From Eremomyces bilateralis CBS 781.70 (taxonomy: Eukaryota): a stretch of DNA of 64,000 nucleotides. Location: NCBI GenBank assembly GCA_010015585.1, contig ML975153.1. The stretch is one strand, 5' to 3'. A program made the translations under genes and the position numbers. The notes beneath the pieces were generated by a model. That model was not told the origin of the DNA. It worked only from the letters and a program-made list of their open reading frames with translations, and searched no databases. This document shows, piece after piece, positions 1 through 17,781 of this stretch. Numbering within the stretch: the stretch's first letter is position 1; the number at the start of each line of letters is the position of its first letter.

Positions 1-63
1 GAACTCCAAAAGACACTTTCCGTCATACAATTCAAGCGCCACAGCATCTCCGGATACGACCAT
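1..63 (-). CDS. possible 5' start of a gene running off the window edge (MVVSGDAVALELYDGKCLLEF...)
   Basis: ATG at 63 in an ACCATGG context and an open frame to the edge. Too short to assign. Confidence 0.25.
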   Translation of the reverse strand, partial: MVVSGDAVALELYDGKCLLEF

Positions 64-257
64 GGTCGAAGTTTGAAGAAGAGAGCACGACCGCGTGGTT
101 GGCGATACCAACCCGGTCTCTGCTGGTATTAGGAGCCATTTATTGGAACTAATGCAATCCTTCATCTGGCTGTCCCATTATAACTATTCTTCATTGCCCT
201 CTAGGCTCACATACGACCCACCCAACGAGCGAGGCATGCCGCAGTCTGACCTCCACC

Positions 258-1965
258 TCATTTACTCGGTGGATTCCCCGCCCGCACCAATACCCGAACG
301 TTATCCAAAAACCGCTTGACCAACGGCTCGAACGAGTTCTCCACCCCCTCCTGCGCCATCAACCCCTGCCGCCGCACCTCCTCCGCATCCACCTCCACCT
401 CCAACTCATGCGTGCACGACGGATCGCGCGGATCGCCCACCTGGGTGAGGTCGATCCTTACCCCCTGATGCTCGTAAGATAACCGGTCTTTCCGGCGTGG
501 CGGCTGGCCCCCGGGGTTCCCGTTCGCGCCCACGTGCATGGGGTCGCCACCGTCGACGAGGGTCTCGATGGGGCCGTCGTAGCGCATTTCGACGTTGACG
601 GAGATGCGGATGTCGAAGATTTGGCCGGGGCAGAATATGTCGAGGTCGGCGATGCGGGCTTTAACAATCTTGGCGGTGACCTGGTTGGTTTTGGTGTCCC
701 GGGTGACGCGGATTTTGGGAGCATGTTTGCGCATGGAGATGAGGTCGCGGGCGTAGGCGGGGAGCTGGTCCAGGGCGGCGGGACGGAGGGGGTGGAAGGT
801 GTCCACTTCGACTGAGTGGCGGTAGTGCACGGGGATCCGTGGGGGTTGTTGGGATAGCTGCGTTTCTCGGTTCAAGAAGCGGTTCATGTCCCGATGTTGG
901 AGCTAGATGAGGTTAGTATCTCGTACCACGCCGGTAGGGGAGATTCAATGGACATACCTTAGACATTGTGCTCTCGAATCTTGTCGAAACACCGGGGACG
1001 AGGATAGTCTCCGACTGGACCGGCAATGCTATGCGGCCCCCATCGTCCCGCGAGACCAGCGTCCCGATCTTCGCTTCGATCTCGAAGACGGCTCTCGGAC
1101 CTCCCGCCGACGGGTGTCCCAGATCCGGTCCGGCAACGACCGTATCGAACAGGAAGTCGGCGATCTTGCGGTCGAACTCGTTATAGGGCTCGAAATTCGT
1201 GACGGTGGGTTCGGGGAGGCCGGGCTTCGCGTCGCGCAAGGGCGGTGGATGGCCGTTGGGGGGCGGCGCGGCGGGGGGAGCCGGGGATCGATCGACGCTG
1301 ATCTTCTCGTGCTTCATGCGTGGTGTATGGGAGAGCCGGGCACGCGTTTGACGGGCGTGGATGATCTCTTCGACAATTCGCTCAACATCGGCTTTCAGGT
1401 TGTCCCAGTCGGCGCGTTGCGCCCATCGTGGAGGTTCGTGGCGGACGCGCTTGCGCTGCGATGATTCAGTTTCCAGGTTGTCGACGGTGCTAATGCTTCT
1501 CTTTCGGGAGGAGGGCTGGGGGGAGCTGGTGATGATGGAGGAGGGGTGTTCAGAATGGAGCTGTTCAGGTGGAAGGCCAGATGGCGCGCTGGAGACGCGA
1601 TGGGGACCGTCCAGTGGTTGGTCTAAGGATGAGACGGGGGTGGGGTTTTGAACAGGTTCAGGGTCGGAATAGATGGTAGACGGGATGTTGAGGTTGGTGA
1701 TTCGGGTCTTGGGACTGACGCTGACGCTCTGGTCTCGTGGGAAGGGGTTCGCTGTGGCGGGATGGGGCGTGTACGGTGGCTGCGGAGGGGAGAAGTTGGG
1801 GAAGGTCGGTAGCGAGGCCTGTCGAGTCGGGTACATCTGAGGAGGTAATGGACGCGAGGTGGATGATGGAGAGGAATGCGGAGTGGAGTGCAGTTGGGCG
1901 GGAATGGTGTTGGCTCGCGCTGCGGCGGCGGCGGCGTCGGTGTTGAGAATGGATCGTAGGTCCAT
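258..1965 (-). CDS. CET1: mRNA-capping RNA 5'-triphosphatase (CYTH / triphosphate tunnel family), 2 exons
   Basis: Motifs FEIEAKIG, PPRWA, RRKDRLSY, IDLTQV and HELEVE. Intron 903-957 (GTATGT...TACTAAC...TAG) joins ORFs 913-1965 and 258-887 in frame. Confidence 0.93.
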
Positions 1966-2585
1966 GTTGATCTAAGCGATGGTGATGGTATGGGCTAGCA
2001 GGCTTGTATGGCGCATTAGGTCGGGTAAAGCAAGGCGAGGGTGGAAGAGCGAGTAGGACGAAGCGAGGGTTGGTGGAAGGTGATCTGTTGGTATTCAGCA
2101 TCCATGAAGGGGCCTGAGAATTATTGTCGGATGCGGACATGCGCTGCTGACTCAGCCAGGCCTGATACAGTGAATGAGAGTTAGGAGACAGGTATCAAAA
2201 AGGATGTCCATCAAGGCGTAGTATATTGTCAGAGTGGCTGGTACATTCATTTATACAGCGAATACTCTTGAGCAGTATCCGTACCCTAGGGTTAATATTT
2301 GCTACGGAGTTGTTTGATGTTTACGCCTTGCGGAGAGTTGACGCTTGACAGTTGATAGCTAAGGATGCACGTGATCTAATCAAAATATTTATACCCTAAT
2401 TAGGCAAGAAGGCAGAAACAGAAACGAGCTTACAGTTCGCCCCACTCTCAGATGAACTTTCGGATGAGAGTCGCCAGCCGGCCATATGTTTTTCCGAAAG
2501 ACAGAGACCATCCACTCTCAGGTGACAATGCCCACTCTCAGATGAACTTTCCTTTTCACACTACCTTGTACCAATGTTTATCAAG

Positions 2586-2690
2586 ATGTCGTTGAGCAAG
2601 AATGTAAGTTATTCGGAAAATGTTTAGAATATATTCCTAATTAATCCAGCCTATCTACCAATCGTATTGTGCTCTGCCGTCGCGACCTTT
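2586..2690 (+). pseudogene. 5' stub of a second, convergent gene of the MULE element (MSLSKN|PIYQSYCALPSR...)
   Basis: ATG 2586; intron 2604-2649 (GTAAGT...CTAAT...CCAG) in the same 11-bp periodic style as the transposase introns; then runs into a foreign transposase remnant. Confidence 0.45.
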
Positions 2691-2699
2691 GGGCACGGA

Positions 2700-3383
2700 G
2701 CCTTGGGGGCAAGATGTAGCGGGGCACGACCGATGCAGATAATGGCTGCCATTCAAAAGGAGGATCCGAACACGCCAGTCTCAACCACCGATATTCGCAG
2801 CGAGAGGAAGGCAATTAGAGAGAAGCACTTGAATAGGAGGAGTCTGAGGAGTCCGATTAAGACATCACTAGATGACGTGTCTACGTTGACCCCTGTACCT
2901 GCCCCTATATCTTCCCCTACCCTATCTCATTTATCTTCCCCTATCTCTGTTGCTGTATCTGCCAATATGTCTCGATCCCCTCTATAGCCTGCCTGGCAAC
3001 CTCCGTCGTTGGAAGAGTTCTTTGCTGATATCGAGCGTCGACGGCTTCAGCCTACTCTGCATCACTGTAGTGACTTAAATACAGTGACCAAATTTTTGGC
3101 AGAGACAGGGCAGGAAAAGGACCCGATAGAACTGGTTGAAGCACGGAATATGGCTCTCGCTACAAGCGGAGTATATGCTCCATGTACTCCAACAATGGCA
3201 TGGAATTATAACTTTGGAGATATACAGGCTTTCTACGCTGAGAGATTCGCACAAGTTGATGCTCAAACTACTCCTTTTGAGTATCGGGATGTACCGAGAG
3301 AGCGCCCTAAGCGCGCTGCAGCAGAGAGGGCTTCAAATGCTTGGAAAGAACTCGGTCCGTGCAAGAGGCAGCGACGTCAGTAG
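2700..3383 (+). pseudogene. internally deleted remnant of a second, intronless (Hop-like) fungal MULE transposase
   Basis: ARPMQIMAAIQKEDP...DIRSERKAIREKHLN...SPIKTSLDD resembles the pre-catalytic region of fungal MULE transposases (recognised from memory). It is joined via a Pro/Ser tract to a C-terminal ORF (3009-3383). No DDE core is present. Confidence 0.5.
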
Positions 3384-3540
3384 AAAGAAGAGAGGCTTAA
3401 TAATAGAGTAGCCAATATGAGTCATTTAAGAGGAGCAGACGGAAGCCTCCCGCCGAACACACGTTAATTATGCTCCAGCTTTTGATTTGAACCTCGTACC
3501 AAAATTGATATAATTTATTCTATACTAAATAGTACAGGTA

Positions 3541-3607
3541 GGAAAAACCCATTTGGTGGGAAAAACCCATTTAGTGGGAAAATCTCATTTGGTGGGAAAA
3601 TCTCACC
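3541..3607. repeat. 18-bp tandem repeat, ~3.5 copies (GGAAAAACCCATTTGGTG variants)
   Basis: Read directly from the sequence. Confidence 0.9.
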
Positions 3608-3654
3608 TACATAATTGCCCTGGTTAAATACATTTCTAATACATTAGAAAAGCA

Positions 3655-6600
3655 TTACTCTAGTCCCCGACTTAGACTCTGGTTTTCTAACTCTCTTCTA
3701 TCATTCTCAAGTCGCTTTTGCCGTAGTTCTTCCCTCATCAACTCAATTCTTAATTGCTTTTCCGTCTGATCTAGCTCCATATCTTGCCGTTCTTGGCTTT
3801 GGTTAAGTATGTTCTCGGAGGCCATACGGCAGAGAGCGAGTGATGTATCTCTAAAATGGTAATAGATTAGATACGTATTTCCAATAAATTCTAAATTCAT
3901 TACCTCTGCGCCGATCCCCTTCGTCTTGTAGAAGAGCTGCGTGAGCTCGAAGATCTTGAAACGCGTCTTCTTTGGGGCTCTGGTGGGAGTAGCTCGGTAT
4001 CTACCGAGCCATCGTTATCATCTTCTGACTCTCGCCTCCTTGAACCTATAGAATTTCGAATACGTTAGAAATGTATTAGAATATTTCGGAAAATTTGGTT
4101 CGTACGATCTCTTCTAATAGCCTCTGCGAACCTCTCCGATAGCGACGTATTCCGCCATGAAAGCGAGATTCCATAGCCTGCCCGGCTGTTATATCTATCA
4201 ACATCATACTTATCAAGGATCTGGCTTCTATAGGGTCGTTAATATATTTCTAAAATGTTAAGAATAACTTACGAATGAATTGCTCGAAGTAGAGGGAGTT
4301 GTCGGCCAAAAGAGTTACTCTTAAAGCGTGTTTGCTCAGTAGCATTAGTGTGATTCCGAGTCCTTTCCCAGACCTCACTAGCAATCATTGAGCAATGTTT
4401 ATTAAGGCCACACGCAATTGAAGGCTGCATCTTATGCCGAGTCCACTCCTTCACACTCTCAGAGGAACTAGAGGATGCTAGACAAGTAGTAATATATTAG
4501 TAATATATTACAAATGCATTCGGTATAGATTCCATGGAGAGACGTACTGATAAGCTCATTGCAGAGCTGAAAGTAGTCCGCCTGTGATTCGCAGCGTACT
4601 AATTCCCCCATGCGTGCATGGATAGAGTTAGTATTATGGCCTGAAGTGCCTGCTGCACGATCAATGGATCGCTTGAAATGTATATAACAGAGCATGACGG
4701 TATTTCGAGCCTGCCACTCCCATGGACGATGTGAGCCATCAATTTGAGATAGATATTGGCCCCATCCTAAAACATTAATACCGCGTTTCTAATTCATTTA
4801 GAATACCTTACCTTGAAGCTGGCCTCTGTCCATATCGGTCACAATGCAGGCAAACCCAGTACCATGTAAGTGCTTCCAGCGAATTTCACGCTCGAGTTTA
4901 GAAGATAGAAGCCCAAATAGGGCTTCAAAGGCTTTCGTGTAAGCGGTAGAGCTCTGTGCATTGATGAACACTCGGGCAAATGTAAAAACTTATGAATGTA
5001 TTAGTAATACATTTATAAAAGGATTAGCGACTTGACTTACTCTTTTCGTTCTCTGGGAGGTAGGCCGCAAAGACGATCTCGTTGATGTCTTTATCTCGCA
5101 CACGTTTGAAGCCCATATCAATCTCAAAGGATTCCCGATCTAGTATTATCTTTACTTGTTCTTTGAAGAAACAAGTAACCAGAAGGTTAATACCATCGAA
5201 GTAATACCCTTGGATATACTGGAGATATGTTAGTAATGCATTTGCAATGCATTGTAAAATAATTACCTGATTCGGTTTCCCCGATTGGATCTTGTACTCG
5301 TTTTCAACAGCGGCAATTGACTGGCCAAAAGGATAGGAGAGAAGCCTCTGTTTCTTTATAAGAGCACTAATCTTATCAAGATTACTGAAGCTTTGGTGGA
5401 CATCAGCAAGAGATGTTCCTTGATGCTGTGTACAAAAACGCTGCATTTCTGGATGCCGAAGGAGACCAGCTAGAGAGGTAGAGATACATTAGAAATGTAT
5501 TTTAAATGTATTTATAATATGTTCTTACCAGTGGTAATGCTAGGATCACTAATCCTTTGAATGACTTTTACGATCTCATCGCAGTATTGCTGGGGCGTCT
5601 TCGTTGGTGGAGGTGGAGGATGTCGATGGGTGCCATGTGATAACCATATGAAGTAAGGTGTCTCGTCCATTTCAATTGAGAGATACACCGTAAATTGTAC
5701 GGTACAAGGGAGTACAACGATATCTCCCTGTCCCTGGGGATGATCAACACCTAAACTGATTTAGAATATATTATAAACATATTAGTAATGACTTACCGCA
5801 GCGTTTGGCCCTGCTATTCATCTGTTTGAGTACAGCACATGGCTCGACGACAGTGTCATGTTCTGTAGTGTTGAAGAGGGCCTTGATTTCAGTAATTCGA
5901 GGATAAAGATATCCTGGAATAGATCGGAAGAAATGTTGTGAGCCATATGTATGACGCTCACATCGGATGTAGAAGTTTGGGACGCCCGAGATAGTCTATT
6001 ATATGTTATAAATGTATTCGAAATATAGTAGAAATCAGTAAACCAAACTTACCACTTGTGAACTTTGGTAAACCTCTGGAATACAGTTCTCGTCTTGAAT
6101 GTCTTTACAAGCAGATCCCTTGCGAAAGGCTTCTATGATAGGCAGGTAAAAGCTAATACCAGTTAACGCTATATCCACTAAATGCATTTATAATTGTATT
6201 TCAAACCTATTCGCTTGCTGGGTAAGGCTCGACTGCTGATATGCATTGCGAGAATTACGTATTTTCTCCCAGTCATCTTCTTCGAAGCACGTATGCTTCA
6301 GATCGATGATATCCTGAGCGAGATATTGACACGCCTTGACGCCCGTACATCGTGCTGACATACGATAGCACCGTGCATTATCTAATATCTTCACCACTGA
6401 GGTATGCTTCGACCATTTAAGGGCAGATGAGTATTGTACCTATAATAGATTAGAAATGATTTAAGAATATATCCCTAATATATTACCAAGTCTTTATGTC
6501 GCTTTCGATCCTCGGCTGGAATGCCTTGAAGGTTGACAACATAGGCAATTCCTTTTTCTGATGTTTGAGGATAATCAGGGATCGAAGGAACATAAATGAT

Positions 6601-6829
6601 ACGCTCAACCTCAACATTGCCATGCGATGATTTAGATATAATCCATGGTTCATCAGCAGGAAGTATATCAGACTAATACATTAGTAATGTATTTGTAATG
6701 AATTATTTAGTTGAATCTCACATTGTCCTGCTGGACATTTTCGGATATTTCAGGATAGGTTTCTAGCTCATCCTCCTCAAAAGGAGTAGACCATGGCACA
6801 GAAAAACCAATGCCAGGAAACTGGGCCAT
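3655..6829 (-). CDS. MULE-like DDE transposase, 14 exons, ~829 aa, no stops after splicing
   Basis: Introns 6673-6721, 6440-6486, 6153-6206, 5996-6052, 5751-5796, 5470-5528, 5219-5266, 4989-5040, 4767-4811, 4478-4547, 4228-4272, 4046-4105 and 3851-3903 (all GT-AG) give a 2490-nt frame. Motifs: C...GTHRHPPP (WRKY/GCM-like Zn finger), FEIDMGFKR (D), IVTDMD (D), CYIHF (CxxH), TNATEQ (E), C-terminal coiled coil. Confidence 0.85.
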
Positions 6830-7057
6830 AATAAATGTATTCCTAATGCATTATGCATACAATTTGGATGGATTGGTATTGGTAAGAAAATGGGGTGTTG
6901 ATCTGGAAGAGTTCATCTGAGAATGAGAAGTAGTTTGGCTCGGGCGGGTCATGTGATGTGTTTCTATGGACCGTGCACTCTCAGTCTCAGATGAAATGAT
7001 GAATTGATGAAAGCTCAATAGCTCATCTGAGAGTGGGCCGACCTGCAGCCTCGAAAC

Positions 7058-9826
7058 CAGGGTGGAGACTTGAGCGAGTTTGAGCGAACTCAAGTCTTAC
7101 GTAATCGAGTCGCCCGACTCTACTCACACTCGTCTAAGAACCTTGGCGAGCGTGCCTGTACCGTGGTTGCGCCAACCAAATAAAGTTCCAACTTTCCTTC
7201 CTGCTTATGTATAAACAGAGATTTCGTGGTGGTGAAGATGGTGAAGAGGATGATAATCTATATTACACTACTTATCTACATAGCCTCCGTAGACGCCTGA
7301 TGATAGATAATCCTCTCGAGCTCCATATCACTGATAATACCTTGATTAAACCAATTCTGTAGGCAAATCAGTCTGTTCAACGTTTTTCCCTCCATCCGTG
7401 GCCTTTCGGTATCAAGAAGTCTCCCACAAGCTGACCAAATCCGCTCCATATCAGCGGCGGAGGAAGGAGTCGCGAAGAGGTCCAGAGCGATCTGGTATAG
7501 AGCGGGAAACCGCGTGCGATTAGCTACCCACCACGTAATAGGCGTATCAGTCTCCTCAGGGGCCTCTCGGAGATAGTAGGAGACCTCATCGGGCGTGGAG
7601 ATATTACGTGGTTCAAAACGAGGCGCGAGGGCTGCCTGGAAGGCCTTGTAGACCCTTTGGCGATCACTAGGGATGGTCTCCTGCGAGGCCTCCTGTGCAT
7701 TCTCTGCACCCGAATCATTATCCTGTATCTTGGATACATTCTCGCGGAGTTTGCGTAGGAGCTCGGCAGTCTTGTGGCTACTAGCTTCGGAGTCGTCCAA
7801 CCACGCCTTCTTGTATTTTGGGTGGAGGAGAAGGGCGAGTCTGTACGCAGGAATATCCTCCATCTTAGACCGGTATTCCTTCGCCTTAACCAGGGCCGCT
7901 TGTATGGCCCTTACGAGCTCCTGGAGCTCCTGATTCTGTGAAAGATCCGCGAGGAAACCCTCCAGGGCCCGGATAATCATAAGAAGCGATGGATACGCCT
8001 CCCAAAGAGCCCCTTTAGCACCATGGTCCGCATTCCCTTCCAGGATCCAGGTCGCATGCTTCATCGGTTCGTACAACTCGATAAGTTTCTCAAGGATACG
8101 CCAATCGTCGACGGTAAGGCCCTGAAGGTGCTGATACCGCTCGCAGTACTGATCAATAGCGACACGCAGCTTGATGGCTCGCTGGACCGAATCGTACCGC
8201 GAGTTCCACCGTGTGGCGTTCTCACGTACGATTCTAAGGGGCCGATCGGTCTTAATGGACTTTTCGTTGCCCGTCATATCCTCAATAATATCAGTCTGTA
8301 TCGTAAAGAACTCTTTCTCCTGTTTAGGACTCTTTTTGATATGACCAATGATAGCTTTAAGCTTGGTAATGGGCTCTATGTCGGTATTGGTAGGAAACCC
8401 AGAATCCAAATCCGTGTAGCCTTCAGCCCGCCTAGGTCGTATAGTATCAAGCCCATTGTCATTGCTGGCTTCGATATTAGACGAATGGTCCCTGGAAAGC
8501 TGTTGGCAAACTAAATTCACGATGTGGGTACTACAGCGTAAACGCCTTCCCGATAAAGTGAGATTTAGGAGCTTCCCAAGCTCTTTAACCGCGGTAGAGT
8601 TGTTTTCCGCGTTATCAGACATTAGGAACGCAATCCTTGCCTGTATCTCAAACGTTTGGATAGCCTTGGTAAGGAGCTGTGCGATATTGTCGCCGGTATG
8701 AGCACCTTCGATCTCCTCTAGCCGTAAGAGGATATTTTGTTGACGCGGTATTCCTTCCCCGGAGATGAAATGCGCCTCGATCCCAAGGAAAGGAAGGTCG
8801 TTCGTAGAGGTCCAGATGTCATAAGACAGTGAAACATTGCTAAGACTCCGCGAGATCTTATGAGAAACGAGACGACGACATTCCTTGTATGCGAGATCAA
8901 TTTTCTTGCGCACAGACTTATGGTTGCGTACTCCCATCTCAATCTCTCCACCACTTAAAGACTCCATCAGCGCGTTGAAGCTGTTTGACGAAGCCTGACG
9001 AAAAGGCACTCCATCAACCACTAGCCATTTCAAATAGGCTGTGTGGGCGTTGAGGAGGGTCCTCTGACGGTATCCTGTAAAATCCTCCCACGATTCTGGA
9101 TGTCCTGGAGGGATAACCTTCGATCCATGCCTGAGAAAACCGTGATCGTTTATGAGATGTCGACGGGCATTGGAAGTAGCTGATATCGAATACATCTTGA
9201 TATCGTTGATCGATTTCGCTTGAAACCAGCATTTACGACAGACCCAGTACGGTATCTCTTCCTCTGTATCGCCCATTTTCCGTACTGTAAACCCCCAGTA
9301 CCATATGGAGCTTGTCCGGTGTTTCTTCCGCATTGCTTGACGCGTTGGAGGAACGTCAACCGCATATAGACCGTATTTGTCGAGCTGAGGTCGCAGGGGG
9401 ACAAACTCTAGCAGTCGGTCTGTTTCCGTGGTATATGGGGTCTCAGACGACGAGGTCGAGGAGTACGAGTCTGTATACGATGCCATATTGATGTTTTCCA
9501 TGATCGGAATCTCGTTTTCTTGAAATCTCACGGACTTTTGGTGAAACCGGACCAAGACACAGACTTGAATTTCGGTTTTGAGCTACTGTACATTTGTAAC
9601 ATGAGCAATGAACATCGAATTTCGACATGAAGCCGTCATTGCTATGTAATTCATATGGTTTTATAGCCATAACGAGCAAATCTGGGGTCCAAGTCCAGCA
9701 AGATTGGTAGACTAGTATGGAAGAGGATTAGCGGGAGACTCGCTACGAATCTTGAGCGAGCATCGAGCGAGTCCTTGGCGAGCGAGTGCAAATGAAGCGA
9801 GTGGCTCGACTCAAGTCTCCAGCCTG
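7058..9826 (-). mobile_element. full-length hAT transposon (2769 bp)
   Basis: 17-bp TIRs CAGGGTGGAGACTTGAG (7058-7074) / CAGGCTGGAGACTTGAG (rc of 9810-9826), 1 mismatch. Perfect 8-bp TSD CTCGAAAC at 7050-7057 and 9827-9834. Subterminal GAGCGAG repeats at both ends. Confidence 0.96.
7276..9501 (-). CDS. hAT transposase (BED finger, DDE, hATC dimerisation domain); frame open to 9555, first ATG 9501
   Basis: IWYWG...WVCRKC...NARRHLINDH (BED), SLSYDIWTS (D), MSDNAENN (D), RLRCSTHIVNL (CxxH), TRWNS, PITWW...RFPALYQIALDLFATPSSAADMERIWS (E). Confidence 0.94.
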   Translation of the reverse strand: MENINMASYTDSYSSTSSSETPYTTETDRLLEFVPLRPQLDKYGLYAVDVPPTRQAMRKKHRTSSIWYWGFTVRKMGDTEEEIPYWVCRKCWFQAKSINDIKMYSISATSNARRHLINDHGFLRHGSKVIPPGHPESWEDFTGYRQRTLLNAHTAYLKWLVVDGVPFRQASSNSFNALMESLSGGEIEMGVRNHKSVRKKIDLAYKECRRLVSHKISRSLSNVSLSYDIWTSTNDLPFLGIEAHFISGEGIPRQQNILLRLEEIEGAHTGDNIAQLLTKAIQTFEIQARIAFLMSDNAENNSTAVKELGKLLNLTLSGRRLRCSTHIVNLVCQQLSRDHSSNIEASNDNGLDTIRPRRAEGYTDLDSGFPTNTDIEPITKLKAIIGHIKKSPKQEKEFFTIQTDIIEDMTGNEKSIKTDRPLRIVRENATRWNSRYDSVQRAIKLRVAIDQYCERYQHLQGLTVDDWRILEKLIELYEPMKHATWILEGNADHGAKGALWEAYPSLLMIIRALEGFLADLSQNQELQELVRAIQAALVKAKEYRSKMEDIPAYRLALLLHPKYKKAWLDDSEASSHKTAELLRKLRENVSKIQDNDSGAENAQEASQETIPSDRQRVYKAFQAALAPRFEPRNISTPDEVSYYLREAPEETDTPITWWVANRTRFPALYQIALDLFATPSSAADMERIWSACGRLLDTERPRMEGKTLNRLICLQNWFNQGIISDMELERIIYHQASTEAM

Positions 9827-10393
9827 CTCGAAACAGTATGATATGCAAATCACATGATATTTTAGTGTGCACGTGATTGATCTGATGATTGCACAATTGG
9901 TGCCTCAGTCCACAAGGCATCCACCGGCGAAGTCGCCAGAACAACGCAACAGCTTCTGCCTCTTGGGGTTCTCTGCATTCTGAGCCTCTGAGCTGTTCCT
10001 TTGACATTCACTTTATCAAATACCTGTCCCGGTATCTAATCCATTTAGTCAACTCATCTTCCAATCCCTCCTTTCGATCCTCTTCCATCATCCGTGCTTG
10101 CCGCATTCCTTTCAACCCATCATCCCAACTCCGCTTGTGCTTCTCCTTCCTCCCTTTCGCCTTGGCTGCTAGCTAAACGCGCTCATCCGTCACCCATCCG
10201 CGTCAGACGTTTGCCTCCCCCGATCCCCAACTCCGAATACCTCTGCTCCTGCTGCATCCAGCTCCGTCGACATCCAGATCCGTCCGCCATCTGCGCCCGA
10301 TCTTTCGAAAGTCCACGGACTCGTTTCCGACCGTTGTCTCGACTCCCGAACACCCCATCCATATTCCCCCTTCGAGGTGGTTGCGTTGCCGGC

Positions 10394-13300
10394 ATGGTTG
10401 GTCTCACATCGGCCGCTGGCCTCGTGGGCTTTCTATCAGAACACGATCCGACGTTGCGAAGTTTCGCCCTTCACAAGCTGAATGAGGATATTGATTTGTT
10501 ATGGCCCGAAGTCTCCGGCTCCCTCGCTCAAATGTACGTCACCCTTGTTGATGCCTTTCATCGCGCTTGGCCCGTCGTTCACCTGACGGCTGTGAACTTC
10601 TATCATCAACAGAGATGTGATGTGGGCGTCCCCTAGCTAACCATGAACAGTGAGGCGCTTTACGAAGATGAATCCTTTCCAGATCGTGAACTCGCCGCCC
10701 TGGTGGCCGCCAAGGTCTACTACCAGCTACAAGAATACGACGAGAGCATGGTGTTCGCCCTAGGTGCCGGAAAACTATTCAGCATCGATCAGCCGGGAGA
10801 GTTTGAAGACACGATTATTGGTATGTTCTTGGTTCGCCGTTGGTGAGGCGTTGTTGCCGTTCTGGCTGGACCGCTAACCGTTCAACAGCAAAGTGCGTGG
10901 ATACGTATATCGCGCTGTCTGCTATGCACAATCCTCCCGCACCAGCGAGCAGTGCAAATTCCGCGCCGCCCGTTTTGTCAACCGTGTTCTCCAACGCGAC
11001 CAACGGTGCCGCGAACACGTCCGCCAGCCTCGCCTCCCCGACCACGCCGTTCTCGCAATCAATCCTCCCGTCAAAGTCGCTCCTATCACGTCAAGATTCA
11101 TCATCGTTGGAATCGTCCTTGATGGTGGGCAACGGGGGCATTGTCGGTGCTCACCCGGCGCCGTTGGCCCTCCAGCGGAACGTTCAGAAGAATCTGCAGG
11201 CCGTCATTCGGAGACTTTTCGAGAGCTGCTACGAGATCGGCGAGTACCATCACGTGGTTGGCATCGCCGTCGAAGCCCGCAATCTTGAGGTTTTGCGGGA
11301 AGCCATCCTCCGTGCGAGCCGAGAAGAGAGAAAACAGAGCAAAAAGGCCGCGAGTCCCACTCCAGGCAAGAGCGAGGAACTGATGGAGTATGTGTTGGAC
11401 ATCTGCATGAACATCGTCCAGGAGCGAGGATTACGGAACGAGGTAGGCTCACATCACGCCACTGGACCGCAGGGCGCTAACGTTGAATAGATCCTCCACC
11501 TGATCCTCGACCTTTTGAACGACATCCCCAATCCCGATTACTTTTCGATCGCCAAATGCGTCGTCTATTTGGGCGAGCATTCCATGGCATCCAACATACT
11601 GAAGCAACTCGTGGAAAGAGACGATTCCAAGTCCCTCGCGATCGCCTACCAAATCTCCTTCGATCTCTACGACAATGGCACCCAAGAATTCCTATCTACA
11701 GTGATGGAAGGATTGCCAGATACGACCGAGGAAGCGAAGGACAACGAGCACCCGGTCGCGAACGGGGATATCAACCACGACCGTGAGCCGGCCGAACCGA
11801 CGGAGACGGACCAGCTGCTGGACTCGAACGGCGATTCGCAAGCGAACGGTCCTCGGACCTCGACCATCGCCACGCGCACGAAGCCGGCGACCGAGGCGGA
11901 AACGAAAGCCTATAAATCCATTCGACAAATCCTGACCGGCACGAAGTCAATCGAGCTCAACCTGGAGTTCCTATACCGATCCAATCGACACGATATCGCC
12001 GTGTTGAACCGCATCCGAGACAGCCTCGAGGGCCGGAATTCCATATTCCACTCGGCTGTTACGTTTGCGAACGCATTCATGAACTCGGGCTCGATGAACG
12101 ATGGGTTTTTCCGACAAAACTTGGAGTGGCTCGGTAAAGCCGTGAACTGGAGCAAGTTCACCGCCACGGCGGCCCTGGGCGTGATCCATCGCGGAAATAT
12201 CGGGCAAGGCTTGAAATTACTTGAGCCCTATCTTCCCAAGGCAACATCGGTGAGCGGATCCCCCTACAGCCAGGGCGGTAGTCTGTACGCTCTGGGGCTC
12301 ATCTACACCAATCACGGGACCCAAGTCTTGGATTACCTGCGAAAGCAATTCAACGAAGCGACCGAAGAGGTCGTGCAGCATGGTGGTGCTCTCGGCCTCG
12401 GCGTCGCCGGGATGGCGACTGGTTCCGAGGACATCTTCGAGGAGCTCAAAACCGCTCTGTGGTCCGACTCCGCCATCAATGGAGAGGCCGTGGGCCTTGC
12501 CATGGGGTTGATCATGCTCGGCACCGGAAGCACCAAGGCACTGCATCTCATGATCCAATATGCCCATGAAACGCAGCACGAGAAGATTGTTCGTGGCCTC
12601 GCCATGGGCATGGCGCTGATTATGTATGCCCGACAAGAAGCGGCCGACGATCTTATCAATGGGCTCCTCGAGGAACCCGACCCATCGCTCCGCTACGGTG
12701 GCATCATGACCATTGCGTTGGCGTATTGTGGAAGCGGAAGCAACCGTGCCGTCCGTCGACTGCTCCACGTAGCTGTCAGCGATGTCAACGATGATGTGAG
12801 GCGAGTCGCCGTTATGAGCTTGGGCTTCGTTCTGTTCCGGAAACCGGGCAGCGTTCCACGGATGGTGGAATTGCTGGCCGAGAGCTACAACCCGCACGTC
12901 CGGTATGGCGCCACCATGGCCCTGGGGATTGCCTGCGCTGGAACAGGGTTGGACGACGCGATCGATCTGCTCGAGCCGATGATGAAAGACTCGGTCGACT
13001 TCGTCCGCCAGGGCGCGTTGATCTCTCTCGCCATGATCATGGTGCAGCAGAACGAGGTCATGAATCCCAAGGTGGCGACCATCCGCAAACTGCTGACCAA
13101 GACGGTCAGCGATCGCCATGAAGACGCGATGGCCAAGTTCGGAGCGGCGCTCGCACTGGGAATCATCGACGCCGGCGGTCGAAATTGTACCATCGGCCTG
13201 CAAACGCAAACGGGGAACCTCAACATGACCGCGGTCGTGGGGATGGCCATCTTCACCCAATATTGGTATTGGTTCCCGCTGACGCACTTCCTATCCCTCT

Positions 13301-14276
13301 CCTTCACACCGACGGCCATCATCGGAGTAGACCAGGATCTGGAAATCCCCAATTTCGCGTTCCACAGCGCCACACGGCCGAGTCTGTTCGACTACCCGCC
13401 AGAGCAGGAGGTCAAGACCGAGGAGGCACCCGAGAAGGTAAAGACCGCCGTTCTTAGCACGACGGCTCAGGCGCAGAGGAGGAAGATTGCCAAAGAGCGA
13501 CAAGCCCGGCGGGAGAGCACGAGTGGCATGGAGATCGACCAAACCCCTACCACCCCCAAAGTTGGCGCCGAAGACGCGATGGAGGTGGACGAGGAGACAA
13601 AGAAGGAGGACGAAGAGAAACCCCCGGCCGAAGGGGACAAGGAGAAGTCAAAGGACGGCGCGGCAGTCGAAGGCAAAAAGCGACCGGAAAAGGAGAAGGT
13701 GGGGTACGAGCTGGAAAACATGTCTCGCATTCTTCCCGCGCAGACCAAGTACCTCAGCTTCCCGAGTGACCGATATGTTCCGGTCAAAAAGGTGAGCACC
13801 AGTCTACCGTTGTATGTTCGTTGCTAACAGATTCCCAGCCTACCGGCGGCGTCATCCTGGTCCACGACAATCAGCCATCCGAGCCGAAAGACCTGCTCGA
13901 ACTCAAGGTCCAGAAAGCTGTCGTCACCGCCGCGCCCACCGCTGGCCAATCGACCGGTCCCTCCGGGGCGCAAACGGCCACCACGGGAATCCCCAGCATC
14001 GGCAGTCTCTCGTCGTCGCAGCTCGGAAACCTCAACCCCGCGCAGCGCGACATGATCGGGAACCTGCAGCGCCTGTTGGGGGAGCAAGGCCACGGTCAGG
14101 CCGGGGAGGACGAGCCGCAGACGCCCGCGTTCCGGGGCGATCACGGCGGCGCGGCGGCGGGGGCGGGCGTGCTTACCGCGTGGGATGATGGGGAAGAGGA
14201 GGCGGAGGCGCCCGACGCGTTTGACTATGACAGCGACGGACACCGCAACGATGGGATGGACGATGATGAGGAGTAA
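10394..14276 (+). CDS. RPN2: 26S proteasome regulatory subunit Rpn2 (PSMD1), 5 exons
   Basis: MVGLTSAAGL start, ALVAAKVYYQL, NLEWLGKAVNWSKFTATAALG, PC repeats and QYWYWFPL. Introns near 10533-10650, 10821-10888, 11443-11490 and 13792-13838. Confidence 0.97.
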
Positions 14277-15027
14277 AGGGACGATACCACCCGCCTTTTT
14301 CGCTCGGGGACGACCACCATCCACCTCCGCTCGCCATTCGGCATCCTCAGATTCGCTACGACGCCTCGAGACACCCCGATGCGCTGGATCGGCCACCCGC
14401 TTCGATCCACCCTTCGACCTAATCCCCATGCATCTGGTTCGGCGCCTACGGACTGTAATCGTCTTTTTTCACGTTCACGTTTGTCTTAACAACTTCCTGC
14501 CTGCGTACCTTGCGCTGACGGGGTCCACGGTGCTTCTGGATTTTGGAACCCGCGCGCGGTCTTAGAATAGTAAGGGGGGGACGGGTTATAAGATGTAGAG
14601 TATTCATACGTGCAACCAACCCATCAGATATAATCCATGTGTGTTCTTGAGAATTTGCTTGGTCGACGTGATGAGATTATGTCCCGGATTTTCTTTTTAG
14701 TATAAGTAGAAGCGTTAAATCGTCTGGTGTGGAATACTTTGATGGCAACAGCATCTAATAGCTATCCCAGGCAGGGGGAGCTGCTTAGTGGGCTGTGGTA
14801 ATCCACGTCCGCCACGTCCAGACCACTGTACGCGTAGACCTACCGTACGAGTCCTGTAGCCAAGCTTCCTTTACTGAGTTATTGCCTTTCAACCTGCATG
14901 TTACAACTATCGGAAAAAACATGCCATTCACCCCTTCGTCCAGAAGAACGGTGCCTTTGCAATCCCCATAGCGTTTAATGGACCTTCTGGTCATCACCCC
15001 CCACTTCGACGTGGACAATCGGTAGCC

Positions 15028-17032: not shown

Positions 17033-17286
17033 TAAACGGGATGGGCGGGAAACATTTCCTCTTACTGACGAGCCAGTCGACGGGATTGCTGTCGTTTGGA
17101 TGGGCGTTCATGGATGCTTTGGACGAAAAAGGAGGATTTAATGCGTCATGAGATTCACAAGATATAGTAATACATGCGTCGTCCTGGGGATGCTTCGCTA
17201 TAATACAAGAGGTTCGATATCATCCCATGTGAAACACCCAGACTCCATCCGCCCGCCGCCGTGGTATGCTCGCCTTTCACTCCGAC

Positions 17287-17781
17287 TTATCCTTGCCTGT
17301 GACGTATCAGATATGCCATGGTGAAGCGTAAAGGTCAACTCACCGCTGCTTGTGCTTCGGGTTCTTGCTACATATGATGTAGACATACTTCTTCTTCCGT
17401 CGCACGCTCTGTCCTTCTGTCAGCACACCGTCGTCACAATCGCCAATCCTTCCGCCGGGAGATTTCTGCATACCTTACATCCGTCGCATAATTTCTTCAC
17501 GGACGTCCGCACCTGTTCAGCTCAGCATCCACCCCCGGTCCTGGAATCAAGCAACCAACCTTCATCCCTCTTCGCTGTCCTACGGTTGTGAAGATCGAGG
17601 TGCCATTGGCCTCCACGGCCCCGGAAGGGCTTAGGAATTGCGATGGACGATTGGGTCGTGGGAAGCGGAGGGTTTGCGAAATCGACGTGATGCTTCGACG
17701 GAGCGGAAGCTGGGTGAACGGACTTGAGCAGGTCGGTCGGGAGACCTGCCTGCTTGTAAGTAAGAGGGTCCGAGCCAACAT
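17287..17781 (-). CDS. RTC6: mitochondrial ribosomal protein bL36m, 4 exons
   Basis: Arg/Ser-rich presequence, then spliced RGMK|VRTSVKKLCDGCK|SVRRKKKYVYIICSKNPKHKQR|QG* (L36 Zn-ribbon signature). Only partly present in the ORF track. Confidence 0.9.

What the first reader, a model, noticed from the sequence alone, without database searches (positions are those of the whole stretch)
3626..6855. The introns of the MULE transposase gene are built from an 11-bp periodic quasi-palindrome
Seen: the 13 introns (45-70 nt) contain 2-4 phased units of consensus ATT-N3-AAT-N2 (often ATTWCTAATRY), clearer in some than others. Sense-strand examples: intron 1 ATTACAAATAC ATTACTAATGT ATTAG; intron 5 ATTACTAATAT GTTTATAATAT ATTCTAAATCA; intron 6 ATTATAAATAC ATTTAAAATAC ATTTCTAATGT; intron 7 TTTTACAATGC ATTGCAAATGC ATTACTAACAT; intron 10 ATTTGTAATAT ATTACTAATAT ATTACTACTTG; intron 13 ATTTAGAATTT ATTGGAAATAC GTATCTAATCT. 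The unit recurs in the 3' UTR (3626-3656) and 5' UTR (6831-6855). I did not see it in the host introns I read. The unit embeds a CTAAY branch point and reads similarly on both strands. Inference: the periodicity is retained while the N positions drift, which suggests selection on a DNA-level code at about one helical turn. Candidates are distributed binding arrays for an element-encoded protein, nucleosome phasing, an anti-silencing signal analogous to nematode intronic PATCs, or an intron-generating mechanism. I do not know of a description of this in fungal MULEs.
Basis: partly seen in the sequence, partly recalled or inferred. Interest (0 to 1): 0.9.

Follow-up and report, generated by a model that had tools for sequence, protein, structure and literature searches.

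The report
Transposon introns built on 11-base lattice
A fungal DNA transposon carries its own kind of tiny intron, each a short array of an 11-base mirror-symmetric unit that evolution has preserved and that the host's own introns lack; what the pattern does is still unknown.

Summary
The octamer AATRYATT occurs 24 times in 64 kb. 22 copies lie in one 4.6-kb transposon (2425-7053): 18 in its 14 introns, 4 in two intron-like arrays at the mRNA ends, none in exons. Neighbouring copies are always 11 bp apart (ATT-ATT at d=11: 17 observed vs 1.6 in shuffles, z 12). The lattice AATNNATT+NNN often runs in register from GT to AG, with the branch site in one spacer.

RNA contigs show spliced joints at introns 12 and 13 and the accessory-gene intron. 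Eleven RNA-confirmed host introns are GC-rich and lack the lattice.

A 73%-identical metagenomic relative has introns at the same 10 positions with the same lattice. Lattice bases are 82-84% conserved, spacer bases 33-50%, and 4-fold sites 49% diverged, so the triplets are held by selection. Eight further relatives, read through their introns, fit it; one outside the clade does not.

The transposase folds like the IS256-family ISCth4 enzyme (Mutator superfamily), though Pfam finds no MULE domain.

Function is not shown. I favour an intron-level (pre-mRNA) role over a DNA-binding code. Stable hairpins are not supported. My literature searches found no description.

The parts
2425..7053 (.). Whole DNA transposon (about 4.63 kb), low GC relative to its surroundings
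   Evidence: Imperfect terminal inverted repeats at both ends. Similarity to the relative L001 starts exactly at the right end. Element GC is 0.42 against 0.52 for the rest of the window.
2425..2464 (+). Left terminal inverted repeat, with copies of a CTCTCAGATGA-type subterminal motif further in (2441, 2511, 2531)
   Evidence: 30 of 40 positions identical to the reverse complement of the right end. Direct-repeat family D5 and inverted repeats I2 and I18.
7014..7053 (-). Right terminal inverted repeat with the same subterminal motif
   Evidence: L001 positions 115-154 match it at 30/40.
3655..6829 (-). Transposase gene: 14 exons, 829 aa, Mutator/IS256-superfamily fold
   Evidence: Clean frame after removing 13 GT..AG introns. 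73% identical over 643 aa to the L001 product. NCBI protein P0001 is 100% identical to exon 10. AlphaFold model pLDDT 84; top five PDB matches are ISCth4 transposase.
6673..6721 (-). Intron 1, 49 nt, lattice match 20/27
   Evidence: A 19-nt perfect palindrome surrounds an ACT spacer.
6440..6486 (-). Intron 2, 47 nt, lattice 22/25, starts GT|AAT
   Evidence: Same length and register as L001 intron 2.
6153..6206 (-). Intron 3, 54 nt, weakest lattice (15/30)
5996..6052 (-). Intron 4, 57 nt, lattice 21/31
5751..5796 (-). Intron 5, 46 nt, lattice 21/24
5470..5528 (-). Intron 6, 59 nt, lattice 25/32
   Evidence: TRF reports period 11.
5219..5266 (-). Intron 7, 48 nt, lattice 22/26
   Evidence: The deposited gene model P0001 reads this intron through in frame.
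4989..5040 (-). Intron 8, 52 nt, lattice 18/29
   Evidence: The junction agrees with P0001.
4767..4811 (-). Intron 9, 45 nt: GT + 4 octamers + AG (19/24)
   Evidence: Same length and register as L001 intron 9, which matches 24/24.
4478..4547 (-). Intron 10, 70 nt, lattice 28/38
   Evidence: TRF reports period 11 at 100% matches.
4228..4272 (-). Intron 11, 45 nt, lattice 17/24
   Evidence: An RNA contig piece ends at 4227, the exon edge.
4046..4105 (-). Intron 12, 60 nt, lattice 21/33
   Evidence: Spliced joint in RNA contigs of run X3..
3851..3903 (-). Intron 13, 53 nt, lattice 25/29
   Evidence: Spliced joint in RNA contigs of run X3..
6821..6860 (-). 5' array: 40-nt GT..AG intron-like lattice segment that contains the start codon; probably a former intron
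   Evidence: Lattice 18/22. L001 has at the same place a 45-nt GT..AG lattice segment (285-329) with an in-frame ATG upstream.
3620..3658 (-). 3' array: 39-nt GT..AG intron-like lattice segment. The stop codon lies in its GTAAT, and it forms nearly all of the 3' UTR
   Evidence: It is not spliced in the RNA contig, which ends at 3619.
2604..2649 (+). Intron of the second, convergent gene of the element, 46 nt, lattice 20/24
   Evidence: Spliced joint with GT..AG in RNA contigs of X3..
2587..3383 (+). Second (accessory) gene, apparently decayed: the frame after the intron does not continue into the long open frames, and one in-frame stop sits at 2985-2987
   Evidence: No Pfam family and no Atlas hit.
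3537..3600 (.). 18-bp tandem repeat (3.6 copies) between the two genes; not part of the lattice

Best explanation
This is a transposon-specific class of minimal spliceosomal intron.

What is shown:
- A clade of Mutator-superfamily DNA transposons of filamentous ascomycetes carries these introns. The copy here is in Eremomyces bilateralis.
- Each intron is a short tandem array of an 11-nt, two-fold-symmetric unit: the octamer AATNNATT plus a 3-nt spacer.
- In its clearest form the intron is GT + four octamers + AG = 45 nt. The 5' splice site (GT|AAG/AAT) and the 3' splice site (ATT|AG) are part of the lattice.
- One spacer (ACT or TCT before AAT) supplies the branch site.
- Introns 12, 13 and the accessory-gene intron are removed in the host's RNA.
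- Arrays gain and lose whole units by slippage.
- The AAT/ATT triplets are held far more tightly than the spacer positions. The lattice is shared by a clade of relatives and is absent from host introns.

What is inferred: the lattice works at the level of the intron itself, in the pre-mRNA. It may act as the element's own intron-definition scaffold: a regular row of A-W-U triplets every 5-6 nt for multivalent binding, plus a weak fold-back around the branch site. This would let these foreign-style, AT-rich mini-introns be recognised in a GC-rich host. The array at the 3' end may have been reused as the polyadenylation region.
For: Specificity and periodicity.

Register with splice sites: 9 of 24 introns start GT|AAK and 13 of 24 end ATT|AG.

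Both 'UTR' arrays are GT..AG-bounded in register. The L001 counterpart of the 5' array is a 45-nt intron with an in-frame upstream ATG.

No array occurs in the element's other non-coding stretches 2425-2586, 3384-3618 and 6861-7053.

Splicing:
- RNA-only joints at 2604-2649, 3851-3903 and 4046-4105.
- An exon edge at 4227.
- A 2556-nt RNA contig whose length would fit the fully spliced mRNA, with '11 more joints not shown'.
- Junctions 8, 9, 11, 12 and 13 agree with the deposited protein P0001.

Host contrast: 11 RNA-confirmed host introns have 52% GC, CTAAC or CTGAC branch sites, and lattice match 0.27-0.46. The element's introns have 25% GC.

Selection:
- Lattice identity is 61/73 (ungapped same-length ortholog pairs) and 92/112 (3'-anchored pairs), against 8/24, 16/32, 12/36 and 21/53 at N positions. 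97/198 four-fold sites differ.
- Among A/T sites, 92/109 are unchanged on the lattice against 21/55 off it, p 3e-9.

Clade-wide pattern:
- Read-through peptides at intron positions 7-11 of 8 further metagenomic relatives (40-63% identical) are 0.74-1.00 lattice-compatible. Shuffled peptides give about 0.6-0.7 and exon windows average 0.59 (max 0.76).
- The lattice bearers form one side of a branch, SH-aLRT 96.

Slippage: period-11 arrays with 100% matches occur in W introns 10 and 6 and in L001 introns 1 and 7.

Local fold-back: adjacent octamer centres are Watson-Crick complementary in 13/49 pairs against 6.7 expected (p 0.014). Six of the 7 non-palindromic cases flank an ACT or TCT spacer.
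Against: - No splicing factor or RNA-binding protein known to me reads AAU/AUU triplets in this spacing. The RNA-level role is inferred, not tested.
- The lattice is symmetric under reverse complement apart from the branch-site spacers and a mild pyrimidine excess. A single-stranded RNA signal has no need of this; a site read on double-stranded DNA does.
- Predicted RNA folds are weak and inconsistent. Mean z is -0.54 (window) and -0.47 (L001), and several introns fold at about 0 kcal/mol.
- With G-U pairs allowed, the centre complementarity is not significant (16 vs 12.4, p 0.16).
- Where a hairpin forms, it would bury the branch adenosine in the stem.
- Only 22 of 76 units are branch-site-like, so most conserved triplets have no known splicing role.
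- Host introns of similar length are spliced without any lattice.
- Only three spliced joints were displayed to me. The other ten introns rest on frame, homology and contig length.
- The tree may be biased by retained intron read-through columns and was a quick search.
Confidence: 0.4

Rival explanations
1. DNA-level periodic code. The two-fold-symmetric 8-bp sites, spaced about one helical turn apart, are read on double-stranded DNA. The reader would be a dimeric or oligomerising protein (element-encoded or host), or the DNA's mechanical properties. The sites sit in introns because that is the only space inside the transcription unit free of coding constraint. The purpose would be to keep the element's chromatin open (as PATCs do in nematodes) or to assist transposition.
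For: - Palindromic octamer and reverse-complement symmetry of the lattice: centres AC 12 vs GT 9, CT 7 vs AG 5; spacers CTA 5 vs TAG 4.
- Constant 11-bp spacing.
- Purifying selection on the triplets.
- No consistent RNA structure.
- Precedent of helical-period AT-rich intronic DNA derived from transposon minisatellites that resists silencing (bioRxiv 10.64898/2026.08.08.743475, abstract read; PMC4947018, search listing only).
Against: - No array lies in the element's ~590 bp of other non-coding DNA, where sites would be easiest to place.
- Every array is GT..AG-bounded and in register with splice sites.
- Arrays are only 2-6 units long, far shorter than PATC tracts.
- The period is 11, not 10-10.5, and there are no A- or T-tracts.
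- The terminal repeats that a transposase should bind carry a different motif.
Confidence: 0.25
2. Self-similar 'sister' introns of common descent. One symmetric mini-intron multiplied within this transposon lineage, in the manner of introner-like elements or the symmetrical introns of Hypoxylaceae. The lattice is what that intron type needs for its own spread or persistence, not something the transposon uses.
For: - All 14 introns and both relic arrays share one architecture.
- Non-orthologous intron pairs are as alike as orthologous ones at N2 positions (32% vs 33%) and nearly so on the lattice (75% vs 82%).
- Symmetric, proliferating introns are known in fungi (PMC8469720, abstract and section 3.5 read; PMC4457414, abstract read).
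Against: - 0 of 11 host introns carry the lattice, so there is no sign of spread outside the element.
- All 10 comparable intron positions are the same in the 73%-identical relative.
- Intron positions 9 and 10 are also occupied, by ordinary-looking introns, in P0029 outside the lattice clade. The positions therefore look older than the lattice, or the lattice was lost there.
- Descent alone does not explain why the triplets resist 49% four-fold-site divergence.
Confidence: 0.15
3. Imported intron style. The element came by horizontal transfer from a lineage in which all introns look like this, so the lattice says nothing about the transposon.
For: - The element's exons (45% GC), introns (25% GC), 5' splice sites (mostly GTAAGT or GTAAT) and branch sites (CTAAT) all differ from the host's (52% GC, GTATGT or GTACGT, CTAAC or CTGAC).
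- It is single-copy by DNA depth (about 250 vs 203-231 in flanks).
Against: - The lattice is kept across a clade down to about 40% protein identity, presumably in different hosts.
- It is kept here in a host whose own introns are unlike it.
- My literature searches found no organism described with such introns.
Confidence: 0.08
4. Neutral by-product. Replication slippage of an 11-nt unit around the branch site, plus quasi-palindrome correction, keeps regenerating periodic AT-rich arrays without any selection.
For: - Perfect tandem copies in several introns.
- Identical neighbouring centres in 11/49 pairs vs 7.2 expected (p 0.095).
- Simple 11-bp AT-rich tandem repeats that fit the same pattern occur by themselves in AT-rich viral contigs.
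Against: - Slippage homogenises whole units, N positions included. Yet across arrays and lineages the N positions are randomised while the same six lattice bases persist.
- The same consensus occurs in all introns of at least 10 diverged elements.
- Nothing comparable occurs in the host's introns or in the 27.5%-GC region of the window.
Confidence: 0.07
5. Interplay with fungal homology sensing. RIP and meiotic silencing recognise matching triplets spaced 11-12 bp apart. The lattice could be a decoy for, or an interference with, that pairing.
For: - The match in form is striking: conserved triplets at an 11-bp period, in Pezizomycotina, in a transposon.
- PMC4858203, abstract read.
Against: - Arrays are 22-66 bp long and separated by 100-233-bp exons.
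- From memory, the RIP work used homologies of hundreds of bp; the abstract I read does not give lengths.
- There is no test here and no sign of RIP in the intact frame.
Confidence: 0.05

Closest known systems
Introner-like elements (ILEs) of Dothideomycetes (Collemare et al. 2015, PMC4457414, abstract read; van der Burgt et al. 2012, recalled)
   Same: Families of sequence-similar spliceosomal introns in the same fungal class. Several can sit in one gene.
   Different: ILEs are multi-copy across many unrelated host genes. As I recall, they are longer than regular introns and have stable predicted folds. Here the introns are 45-70 nt and have no consistent fold. They are confined to one transposon and absent from 11 host introns.
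Internally symmetrical sister (stw)introns of Hypoxylaceae (Fekete et al. 2021, PMC8469720, abstract and section 3.5 read)
   Same: Introns that resemble their own reverse complement. A genuine intron exists on one strand only, and the symmetry is apparently not needed for splicing.
   Different: Those are 93-207 nt, with 45-55-nt terminal inverted repeats and a 10-nt palindrome, and they are spread through host genes. Here the symmetry is at the level of an 8-mer repeated every 11 nt, inside a transposase gene.
PATCs, periodic An/Tn clusters in C. elegans introns (PMC4947018, search listing only; bioRxiv 10.64898/2026.08.08.743475, abstract read)
   Same: AT-rich intronic DNA with a near-helical period. 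It derives from transposon minisatellites and is proposed to resist silencing.
   Different: PATCs have a 10-bp period, are built of A- or T-tracts, form extended barrier elements (as I recall, hundreds of bp long), and lie in host germline genes. Here the period is 11 bp, the units are AAT/ATT triplets, arrays have 2-6 units, they lie in the transposon itself, and they are in register with splice sites.
Triplet-at-11-12-bp homology sensing in RIP (Gladyshev and Kleckner 2016, PMC4858203, abstract read)
   Same: Trinucleotides matched at an 11- or 12-bp period, in filamentous ascomycetes, in a process aimed at repeats.
   Different: That is a property of the recognition machinery, not a sequence family. 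As I recall, it was tested on homologies hundreds of bp long. No link was tested here.
Mutator/MULE transposons and their bacterial IS256 relatives (ISCth4 structures 6xgx, 6xg8, 6xgw)
   Same: The fold of the catalytic region is closest to ISCth4 (E 1.5e-5 to 2e-4). D, D, CxxH and N..E columns are conserved in 29 relatives. UniRef labels some relatives 'MULE transposase domain-containing'.
   Different: No Pfam MULE or Transposase_mut hit even at E<=10. The TIRs are only about 33-40 bp. No 8-11-bp target duplication is seen; only AAA is shared by both flanks.

Membership tests
U2-type GT-AG spliceosomal introns | GT..AG borders whose removal restores an open frame | tested here: met
   13 of 13 introns give a clean 829-aa frame. 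The frame is colinear with the L001 product at 73% identity.
U2-type GT-AG spliceosomal introns | Removal seen in RNA | tested here: met
   RNA-only joints at 2604-2649, 3851-3903 and 4046-4105, plus an exon edge at 4227. The other 10 introns were not displayed ('11 more joints not shown'). They are supported by the deposited protein at junctions 8, 9, 11, 12 and 13 and by a contig length that would fit full splicing.
U2-type GT-AG spliceosomal introns | Branch-site motif 8-35 nt upstream of the 3' splice site | tested here: met
   xCT|AAT or xCT|AAC spacers lie before an octamer in most introns. Actual branch usage was not measured.
Mutator/MULE (IS256-like) DDE transposase | RNase-H-like catalytic fold closest to the IS256 family | tested here: met
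   AlphaFold2 model of P0001: pLDDT 84, pTM 0.67. Foldseek PDB ranks 1-5 are all ISCth4 transposase (E 1.5e-5 to 2e-4); Hermes follows at 2e-3. That ISCth4 belongs to IS256, and that IS256 is kin to Mutator, is recalled.
Mutator/MULE (IS256-like) DDE transposase | Match to Pfam MULE (PF10551) or Transposase_mut (PF00872) | tested here: not met
   No such hit for 13 exon translations, for P0001-P0003, or for the 22 further relatives scanned, including scans at E<=10.
Mutator/MULE (IS256-like) DDE transposase | Conserved acidic triad with CxxH between the second D and the E | tested here: met
   In alignment A2 of 29 relatives, D173, H210, N296 and E299 are invariant; D96 and C207 are nearly invariant. 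Assigning these columns to the catalytic triad is my inference.
Mutator/MULE (IS256-like) DDE transposase | Terminal inverted repeats and an 8-11-bp target-site duplication | tested here: inconclusive
   TIRs are present (30/40 identical). No 8-11-bp duplication is seen; both flanks share only AAA. An adjacent multi-copy hAT element may have disturbed the right flank.
Introner-like elements / introners | Many near-identical copies in unrelated host genes | tested here: not met
   0 of 11 RNA-confirmed host introns in 1-20000 carry the lattice, and no lattice array lies outside the element in 64 kb. The rest of the genome could not be searched.
Introner-like elements / introners | Longer than regular introns, with stable predicted secondary structure | tested here: not met
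   Lengths are 45-70 nt. The mean folding z-score is -0.54, and several introns fold at 0 to -1.5 kcal/mol.
Internally symmetrical Hypoxylaceae (stw)introns | 45-55-nt terminal inverted repeats and the 10-nt palindrome described for them | tested here: not met
   These introns are 45-70 nt in total. Their symmetry is that of an 8-mer lattice, to be compared with section 3.5 of PMC8469720.
PATC-type periodic intronic DNA | 10-bp periodic A- or T-tracts in extended barrier elements | tested here: not met
   The peak is at 11 and 22 nt, not 10 (ATT-ATT at d=10: 1 observed vs 1.6 expected). The units are AAT/ATT triplets, and arrays have 2-6 units.
Simple tandem repeat (minisatellite) | Head-to-tail copies detectable as such | tested here: met
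   TRF finds period 11 in 3 of 14 window introns and 5 of 10 L001 introns. The rest are too diverged at N positions to score, although the lattice persists.

The most novel reading that the evidence does not exclude
The lattice is a sequence code read on the DNA double helix. It would consist of two-fold-symmetric 8-bp sites, one per turn, which a transposon lineage has packed into every intron because introns are the only freely writable space inside its transcription unit. Its purpose would be to shield the element from fungal genome defence, whether heterochromatin, RIP or meiotic silencing. The last two themselves sense triplets at an 11-12-bp period. Alternatively the sites could load an element-encoded protein along the whole gene body. 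Introns would then be maintained in a selfish element as carriers of a DNA signal rather than for anything to do with splicing.
Probability: 0.25. Interest if true: 0.9.

Novelty: new variant of a known kind. Interest (0 to 1): 0.72.

Why it matters
Intron interiors of this size are usually treated as free to drift apart from the splice signals. Here six of every eleven internal bases are conserved as strongly as many coding positions, in every intron of a mobile element and across a clade of relatives, while the host's introns show nothing of the kind.

If the lattice acts in splicing, it would be a portable, host-independent intron design. It would also be a new kind of intronic signal in fungi, of interest for how horizontally moving genes keep their introns spliceable.

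If it acts on DNA, it would be a fungal counterpart of nematode PATCs, carried by the selfish element itself. It might then connect to the unexplained 11-12-bp triplet rule of homology sensing.

Either way, it gives a compact, mutable test object: 45 nt, four units.

It also shows that the deposited gene model is wrong. The model has 472 aa with one intron read through, against 829 aa here.

Tried and rejected
**Searches that found nothing useful**
- Whole-genome search: no genome is held for this window, so copy number and lattice introns elsewhere in the genome could not be checked.
- Pfam on single exons and on relatives: no transposase family.
- Profile of 29 relatives against PDB sequences: only chance-level hits.
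- Rfam on 2300-7200: one sub-threshold chance hit.
- The search for homologous proteins with P0001: only itself.
- Relatives' DNA: the metagenome scan gave one locus; genome contigs and viral contigs gave none.
- Earlier findings of this scan: nothing.
- Protein Atlas for the accessory frame: nothing.
- Literature: eight searches found no description of periodic or lattice introns in a transposase gene. Subscription journals are not covered.

**Controls and hypotheses tested and set aside**
- A scan of viral contigs for a four-octamer lattice returned 20 loci. All are plain, perfect 11-bp tandem repeats, mostly in very AT-rich contigs, and unrelated to this element.
- Stable RNA hairpin hypothesis: folding energies are barely below shuffles and no better on either strand. 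Centre covariation is modest (p 0.014 Watson-Crick, 0.16 with G-U).
- Intron-length quantisation in steps of 11: R = 0.46, p 0.0055 against uniform lengths, but periods 12 and 13 score as high. The result is therefore not specific.
- A 9-bp target duplication was not found.

**Considered from memory only and dropped**
- Extended pairing of the lattice to U2 snRNA.
- Matches to Yap-type bZIP sites, paired-homeodomain sites, the yeast ARS consensus, and yeast polyadenylation efficiency elements.
- None fits all units.

**Sequencing runs**
- The look-up of sequencing runs listed no holder on record as RNA.
- Run X3, guessed to be RNA, did show GT..AG joints absent from the DNA run.

Full report
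**1. What is there**

The stretch 3626-6855 lies inside a gene on the minus strand.
- Removing 13 GT..AG segments of 45-70 nt gives an uninterrupted 829-codon frame from ATG 6829 to TAA 3657-3655.
- Exon 10 is 100% identical to an NCBI protein of Eremomyces bilateralis CBS 781.70 (P0001, 472 aa), so the host is a Dothideomycete.
- The deposited model is shorter than mine and reads intron 7 through in frame. It agrees with my junctions 8, 9, 11, 12 and 13.

The gene sits in a 4.63-kb element, 2425-7053.
- Its ends are imperfect inverted repeats (30 of 40 positions), with repeated CTCTCAGATGA-type subterminal motifs.
- A second, convergent gene on the plus strand (from 2587) has one intron (2604-2649) and looks decayed.
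- The element has 42% GC. Its exons have 45% and its introns 25%, against 52% for the rest of the window.
- By DNA depth the transposase gene is about single-copy: roughly 250 against 203-231 in the flanks.
- The neighbouring hAT transposase gene (7279-9555) is multi-copy.

**2.

Pair-distance counts in the 13 introns (685 nt) were compared with 2000 dinucleotide-preserving shuffles.
- ATT-ATT: 17 vs 1.6 at d=11 (z 12.4) and 10 vs 1.1 at d=22 (z 8.7).
- AAT-AAT: 15 vs 1.4 at d=11.
- AAT->ATT: 23 vs 2.1 at d=5.
- ATT->AAT: 18 vs 1.8 at d=6.
- No shuffle reached any of these values, and d=10 and d=12 are at background.

The sharper description is an octamer AATNNATT (centre mostly RY) followed by a 3-nt spacer.
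- AATRYATT occurs 24 times in 64 kb. 17 copies are in the 13 introns, 4 in the two mRNA-end arrays, 1 in the accessory-gene intron, 0 in exons, and 2 elsewhere.
- Neighbouring copies are always 11 bp apart.
- With a three-octamer template, all 27 windows scoring at least 15/18 lie in the element's introns or end arrays (3 of them straddle an intron border). None of the remaining windows in 64 kb reaches 15.
- A 27.5%-GC region at 29.5-32 kb peaks at 10/18.
- Tandem Repeats Finder calls period 11 in introns 10, 6 and 1.

**3. They are real introns, and the host's introns are different**

I laid contigs of a run guessed to be RNA (X3) and of a DNA run (X1) on window 1-20000.
- Joints present only in X3 fall at 2604-2649, 3851-3903 (intron 13) and 4046-4105 (intron 12).
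- Pieces of one 2556-nt RNA contig end at the exon edges 3850, 3904, 4043, 4104 and 4227.
- The tool withheld 11 further joints. I therefore saw direct RNA evidence for three introns and one further edge.
- The contig length equals the fully spliced mRNA (2490 nt of coding sequence plus 36 nt to 3619 plus about 28 nt upstream). This is consistent with complete splicing but does not prove it.

The same call gave 11 host introns with GT..AG joints.
- They have 52% GC, 5' sites mostly GTATGT, GTACGT or GTGAGT, and branch sites CTAAC or CTGAC.
- Their best-phase lattice match is 0.27-0.46, against 0.50-0.88 for the element's 14 introns.

**4. Anatomy of the lattice**

Each intron was printed in its best phase.
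- 9 of 24 introns (14 here, 10 in the relative L001) begin GT|AAK.
- 13 of 24 end ATT|AG.
- The clearest form is GT + four octamers with three spacers + AG = 45 nt. Examples are window intron 9 and, perfectly (24/24), L001 intron 9.

Of 106 lattice slots, 76 hold a well-formed octamer.
- Centres: AT 21, AC 12, GT 9, CT 7, GC 7, TT 6, AG 5, others 9.
- Spacers are led by ACT (11) and TCT (8). With CCT and GCT, 22 units make a branch-site-like xCT|AAT, roughly one per intron.
- Apart from these spacers and a mild pyrimidine excess near the 3' end, the lattice is symmetric under reverse complement.

The two 'UTR' arrays are themselves GT..AG segments in lattice register.
- The 5' array is 6860-6821 (40 nt) and contains the start codon.
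- The 3' array is 3658-3620 (39 nt), and the stop codon lies in its GTAAT.
- In L001 the 5' counterpart is a 45-nt GT..AG segment (285-329) with an in-frame ATG upstream.
- The end arrays therefore look like former or optional introns.
- The RNA contig ends at 3619, one base past the 3' array.

The element's other non-coding DNA (2425-2586, 3384-3618, 6861-7053) has no array.

**5. Comparative evidence**

A metagenome contig (L001, 2813 bp) encodes a protein 73% identical over 643 residues. It has introns at the same 10 positions and an even cleaner lattice, with match 0.70-1.00.

*Ortholog conservation:*
- Ungapped comparison of the three same-length ortholog pairs: 61/73 identical at lattice positions, 8/24 at octamer centres, 16/32 in spacers.
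- 3'-anchored comparison of the five pairs with the same end register: 92/112, 12/36 and 21/53.
- The other five pairs differ in end register and were left out of the 3'-anchored count.
- Non-orthologous pairs give 476/634, 67/211 and 89/294.
- Four-fold degenerate sites differ at 97/198.

*Controlling for base composition:*
- Among sites that are A or T in L001, 92/109 are unchanged on the lattice against 21/55 off it (Fisher p 3e-9).
- A<->T changes are 6/98 on the lattice against 16/37 off it (p 1.4e-6).
- Mutational stability of A/T sites therefore does not explain the pattern.

*Slippage:*
- Unit number changes between orthologs: 46 vs 66, 48 vs 59 and 70 vs 58 nt.
- Several arrays contain perfect tandem copies.
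- Slippage is ongoing, but it cannot by itself hold the same six bases in every array and lineage.

*Wider family:*
- An exhaustive HMMER search found 653 relatives at E<=0.001.
- Named relatives come from Coccidioides, Polytolypa, Plenodomus, Acrodontium, Hypoxylon and Microsporum, plus a second Eremomyces paralog.
- Many short metagenomic relatives are prokaryote-style gene calls that read through introns.
- At intron positions 7-11, the read-through peptides of 8 further relatives (P0003, P0024, P0041, P0052, P0058, P0059, P0094, P0107) are 0.74-1.00 compatible with the lattice on back-translation.
- Shuffled versions of the same peptides give about 0.6-0.7. Exon windows average 0.59, with a maximum of 0.76.
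- P0029 (43% identical) has inserts at positions 9 and 10 that are not compatible (0.57-0.59) and look like ordinary introns.
- In a quick maximum-likelihood tree of 27 rows, the 9 lattice bearers form one side of a branch with SH-aLRT 96, and P0029 groups with the Plenodomus protein on the other side.
- Three caveats apply to the tree: the careful search did not finish, many rows are short, and read-through columns may have been retained.

**6. What the protein is**

- Pfam finds no MULE or Transposase_mut domain in the exons, in P0001-P0003 or in 22 further relatives, even at E<=10.
- A profile against PDB sequences finds nothing.
- An AlphaFold2 model built from 29 relatives has pLDDT 84. 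Its five best PDB matches are all the ISCth4 transposase (E 1.5e-5 to 2e-4), ahead of Hermes at 2e-3.
- D173, H210, N296 and E299 are invariant in the alignment; D96 and C207 are nearly invariant.
- From memory, ISCth4 is an IS256-family enzyme, and IS256 is the bacterial kin of eukaryotic Mutator elements.
- 'Mutator superfamily' is therefore supported. Membership of the Pfam MULE family is not.
- No 8-11-bp target duplication is visible.

**7. How it may work**

*Shown:* a transposon-specific intron type, spliced in the host, built on an 11-nt symmetric lattice in register with the splice sites. It turns over by whole units, and its triplets are under purifying constraint across a clade.

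*For an intron-level (RNA) role:*
- The register with GT and AG.
- Every array is an intron or an intron relic.
- Arrays are absent from other non-coding DNA of the element.
- Adjacent octamer centres are complementary more often than expected (13/49 vs 6.7, p 0.014), mostly around the branch-site spacer.

*Against it:*
- No factor known to me reads such triplets.
- Predicted folds are weak (mean z about -0.5, several near 0 kcal/mol).
- The G-U-inclusive test is not significant.
- Most units have no branch-site role.
- Reverse-complement symmetry is what a double-stranded DNA site would show.

My estimates for the explanations:

| Explanation | Estimate |
|---|---|
| RNA-level scaffold | 0.40 |
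| DNA-level periodic code | 0.25 |
| Self-propagating symmetric intron family | 0.15 |
| Imported intron style | 0.08 |
| Neutral slippage | 0.07 |
| Link to RIP or meiotic-silencing homology sensing | 0.05 |

RIP and meiotic silencing read triplets at an 11-12-bp period (PMC4858203, abstract read).

**8. Comparison with what is known**

The nearest described things are:
- Introner-like elements (PMC4457414, abstract).
- The internally symmetrical introns of Hypoxylaceae (PMC8469720, abstract and section 3.5).
- Nematode PATCs (bioRxiv 10.64898/2026.08.08.743475, abstract; PMC4947018, search listing only).

Each shares one trait with the lattice introns: self-similar introns, reverse-complement symmetry, or near-helical AT-rich periodicity in introns of transposon origin. 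Each fails on its defining features (see the membership table).

Eight full-text searches found no account of periodic or lattice introns in a transposase gene. The library lacks most subscription journals, and I read no supplements.

**9. Verdict**

The finding is real, specific, conserved and, as far as I could search, undescribed. Its preference for a DNA-level code is possible but not favoured by the anatomy. The function remains open and is cheaply testable.

Noticed in passing
window 7279-9555 (-): An intronless 759-aa open frame with a hAT C-terminal dimerisation domain (E 6e-17). DNA depth is about 4-5 times the flanks, and alternative junctions sit at about 7058-7063. This looks like a multi-copy hAT transposon abutting the right end of the lattice element.
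   Followed up: partly
window 3906-4043 and 3658-3849 (-), C-terminus of the transposase: The C-terminal tail is rich in arginine and serine (an RS-like run) and is followed by a long predicted helix (residues 418-471 of P0001). Similar R/S-rich tails appear in relatives P0013, P0015, P0028 and P0030. RS domains are typical of splicing factors, which may or may not relate to the unusual introns.
   Followed up: no
window 5219-5266 and the deposited protein P0001: The public gene model (472 aa) starts inside exon 7, drops part of exon 7, and translates intron 7 in frame. It also uses a different junction at intron 10. The 829-aa model is supported by the L001 homolog.
   Followed up: partly
window 2669-3335: Summed DNA contig depth is about 4750, against about 200-300 nearby, with loose ends at 2846 and 3170. 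RNA contigs differ from the window at 2769-2784. Part of the accessory-gene region therefore seems to belong to a highly repeated sequence with expressed paralogs.
   Followed up: no
window 3537-3600: An 18-bp tandem repeat (3.6 copies, 89% matches) lies between the two convergent genes. DNA contigs show alternative junctions at 3574 and 3607.
   Followed up: no
window 6859-6911: One DNA contig of run X1 replaces 51 bases here with 11 other letters. This is a structural variant or a paralogous copy just upstream of the transposase start.
   Followed up: no
window 29500-32000: A 27.5%-GC island carries long open frames on both strands (for example 29628-31082 minus and 29650-30681 plus). It may be a RIP-degraded repeat. 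It carries no lattice.
   Followed up: no
L002-L021 (viral contigs): Perfect 11-bp AT-rich tandem repeats that fit the four-octamer pattern occur in 20 stretches of giant-virus and phage contigs, most of them 17-30% GC. They are unrelated to the transposon. They show that period-11 AT-rich minisatellites arise on their own.
   Followed up: partly
window 916-1965 (-): A host gene with an mRNA capping enzyme beta-chain (mRNA_triPase) domain. It has an RNA-confirmed 55-nt intron at 903-957.
   Followed up: no
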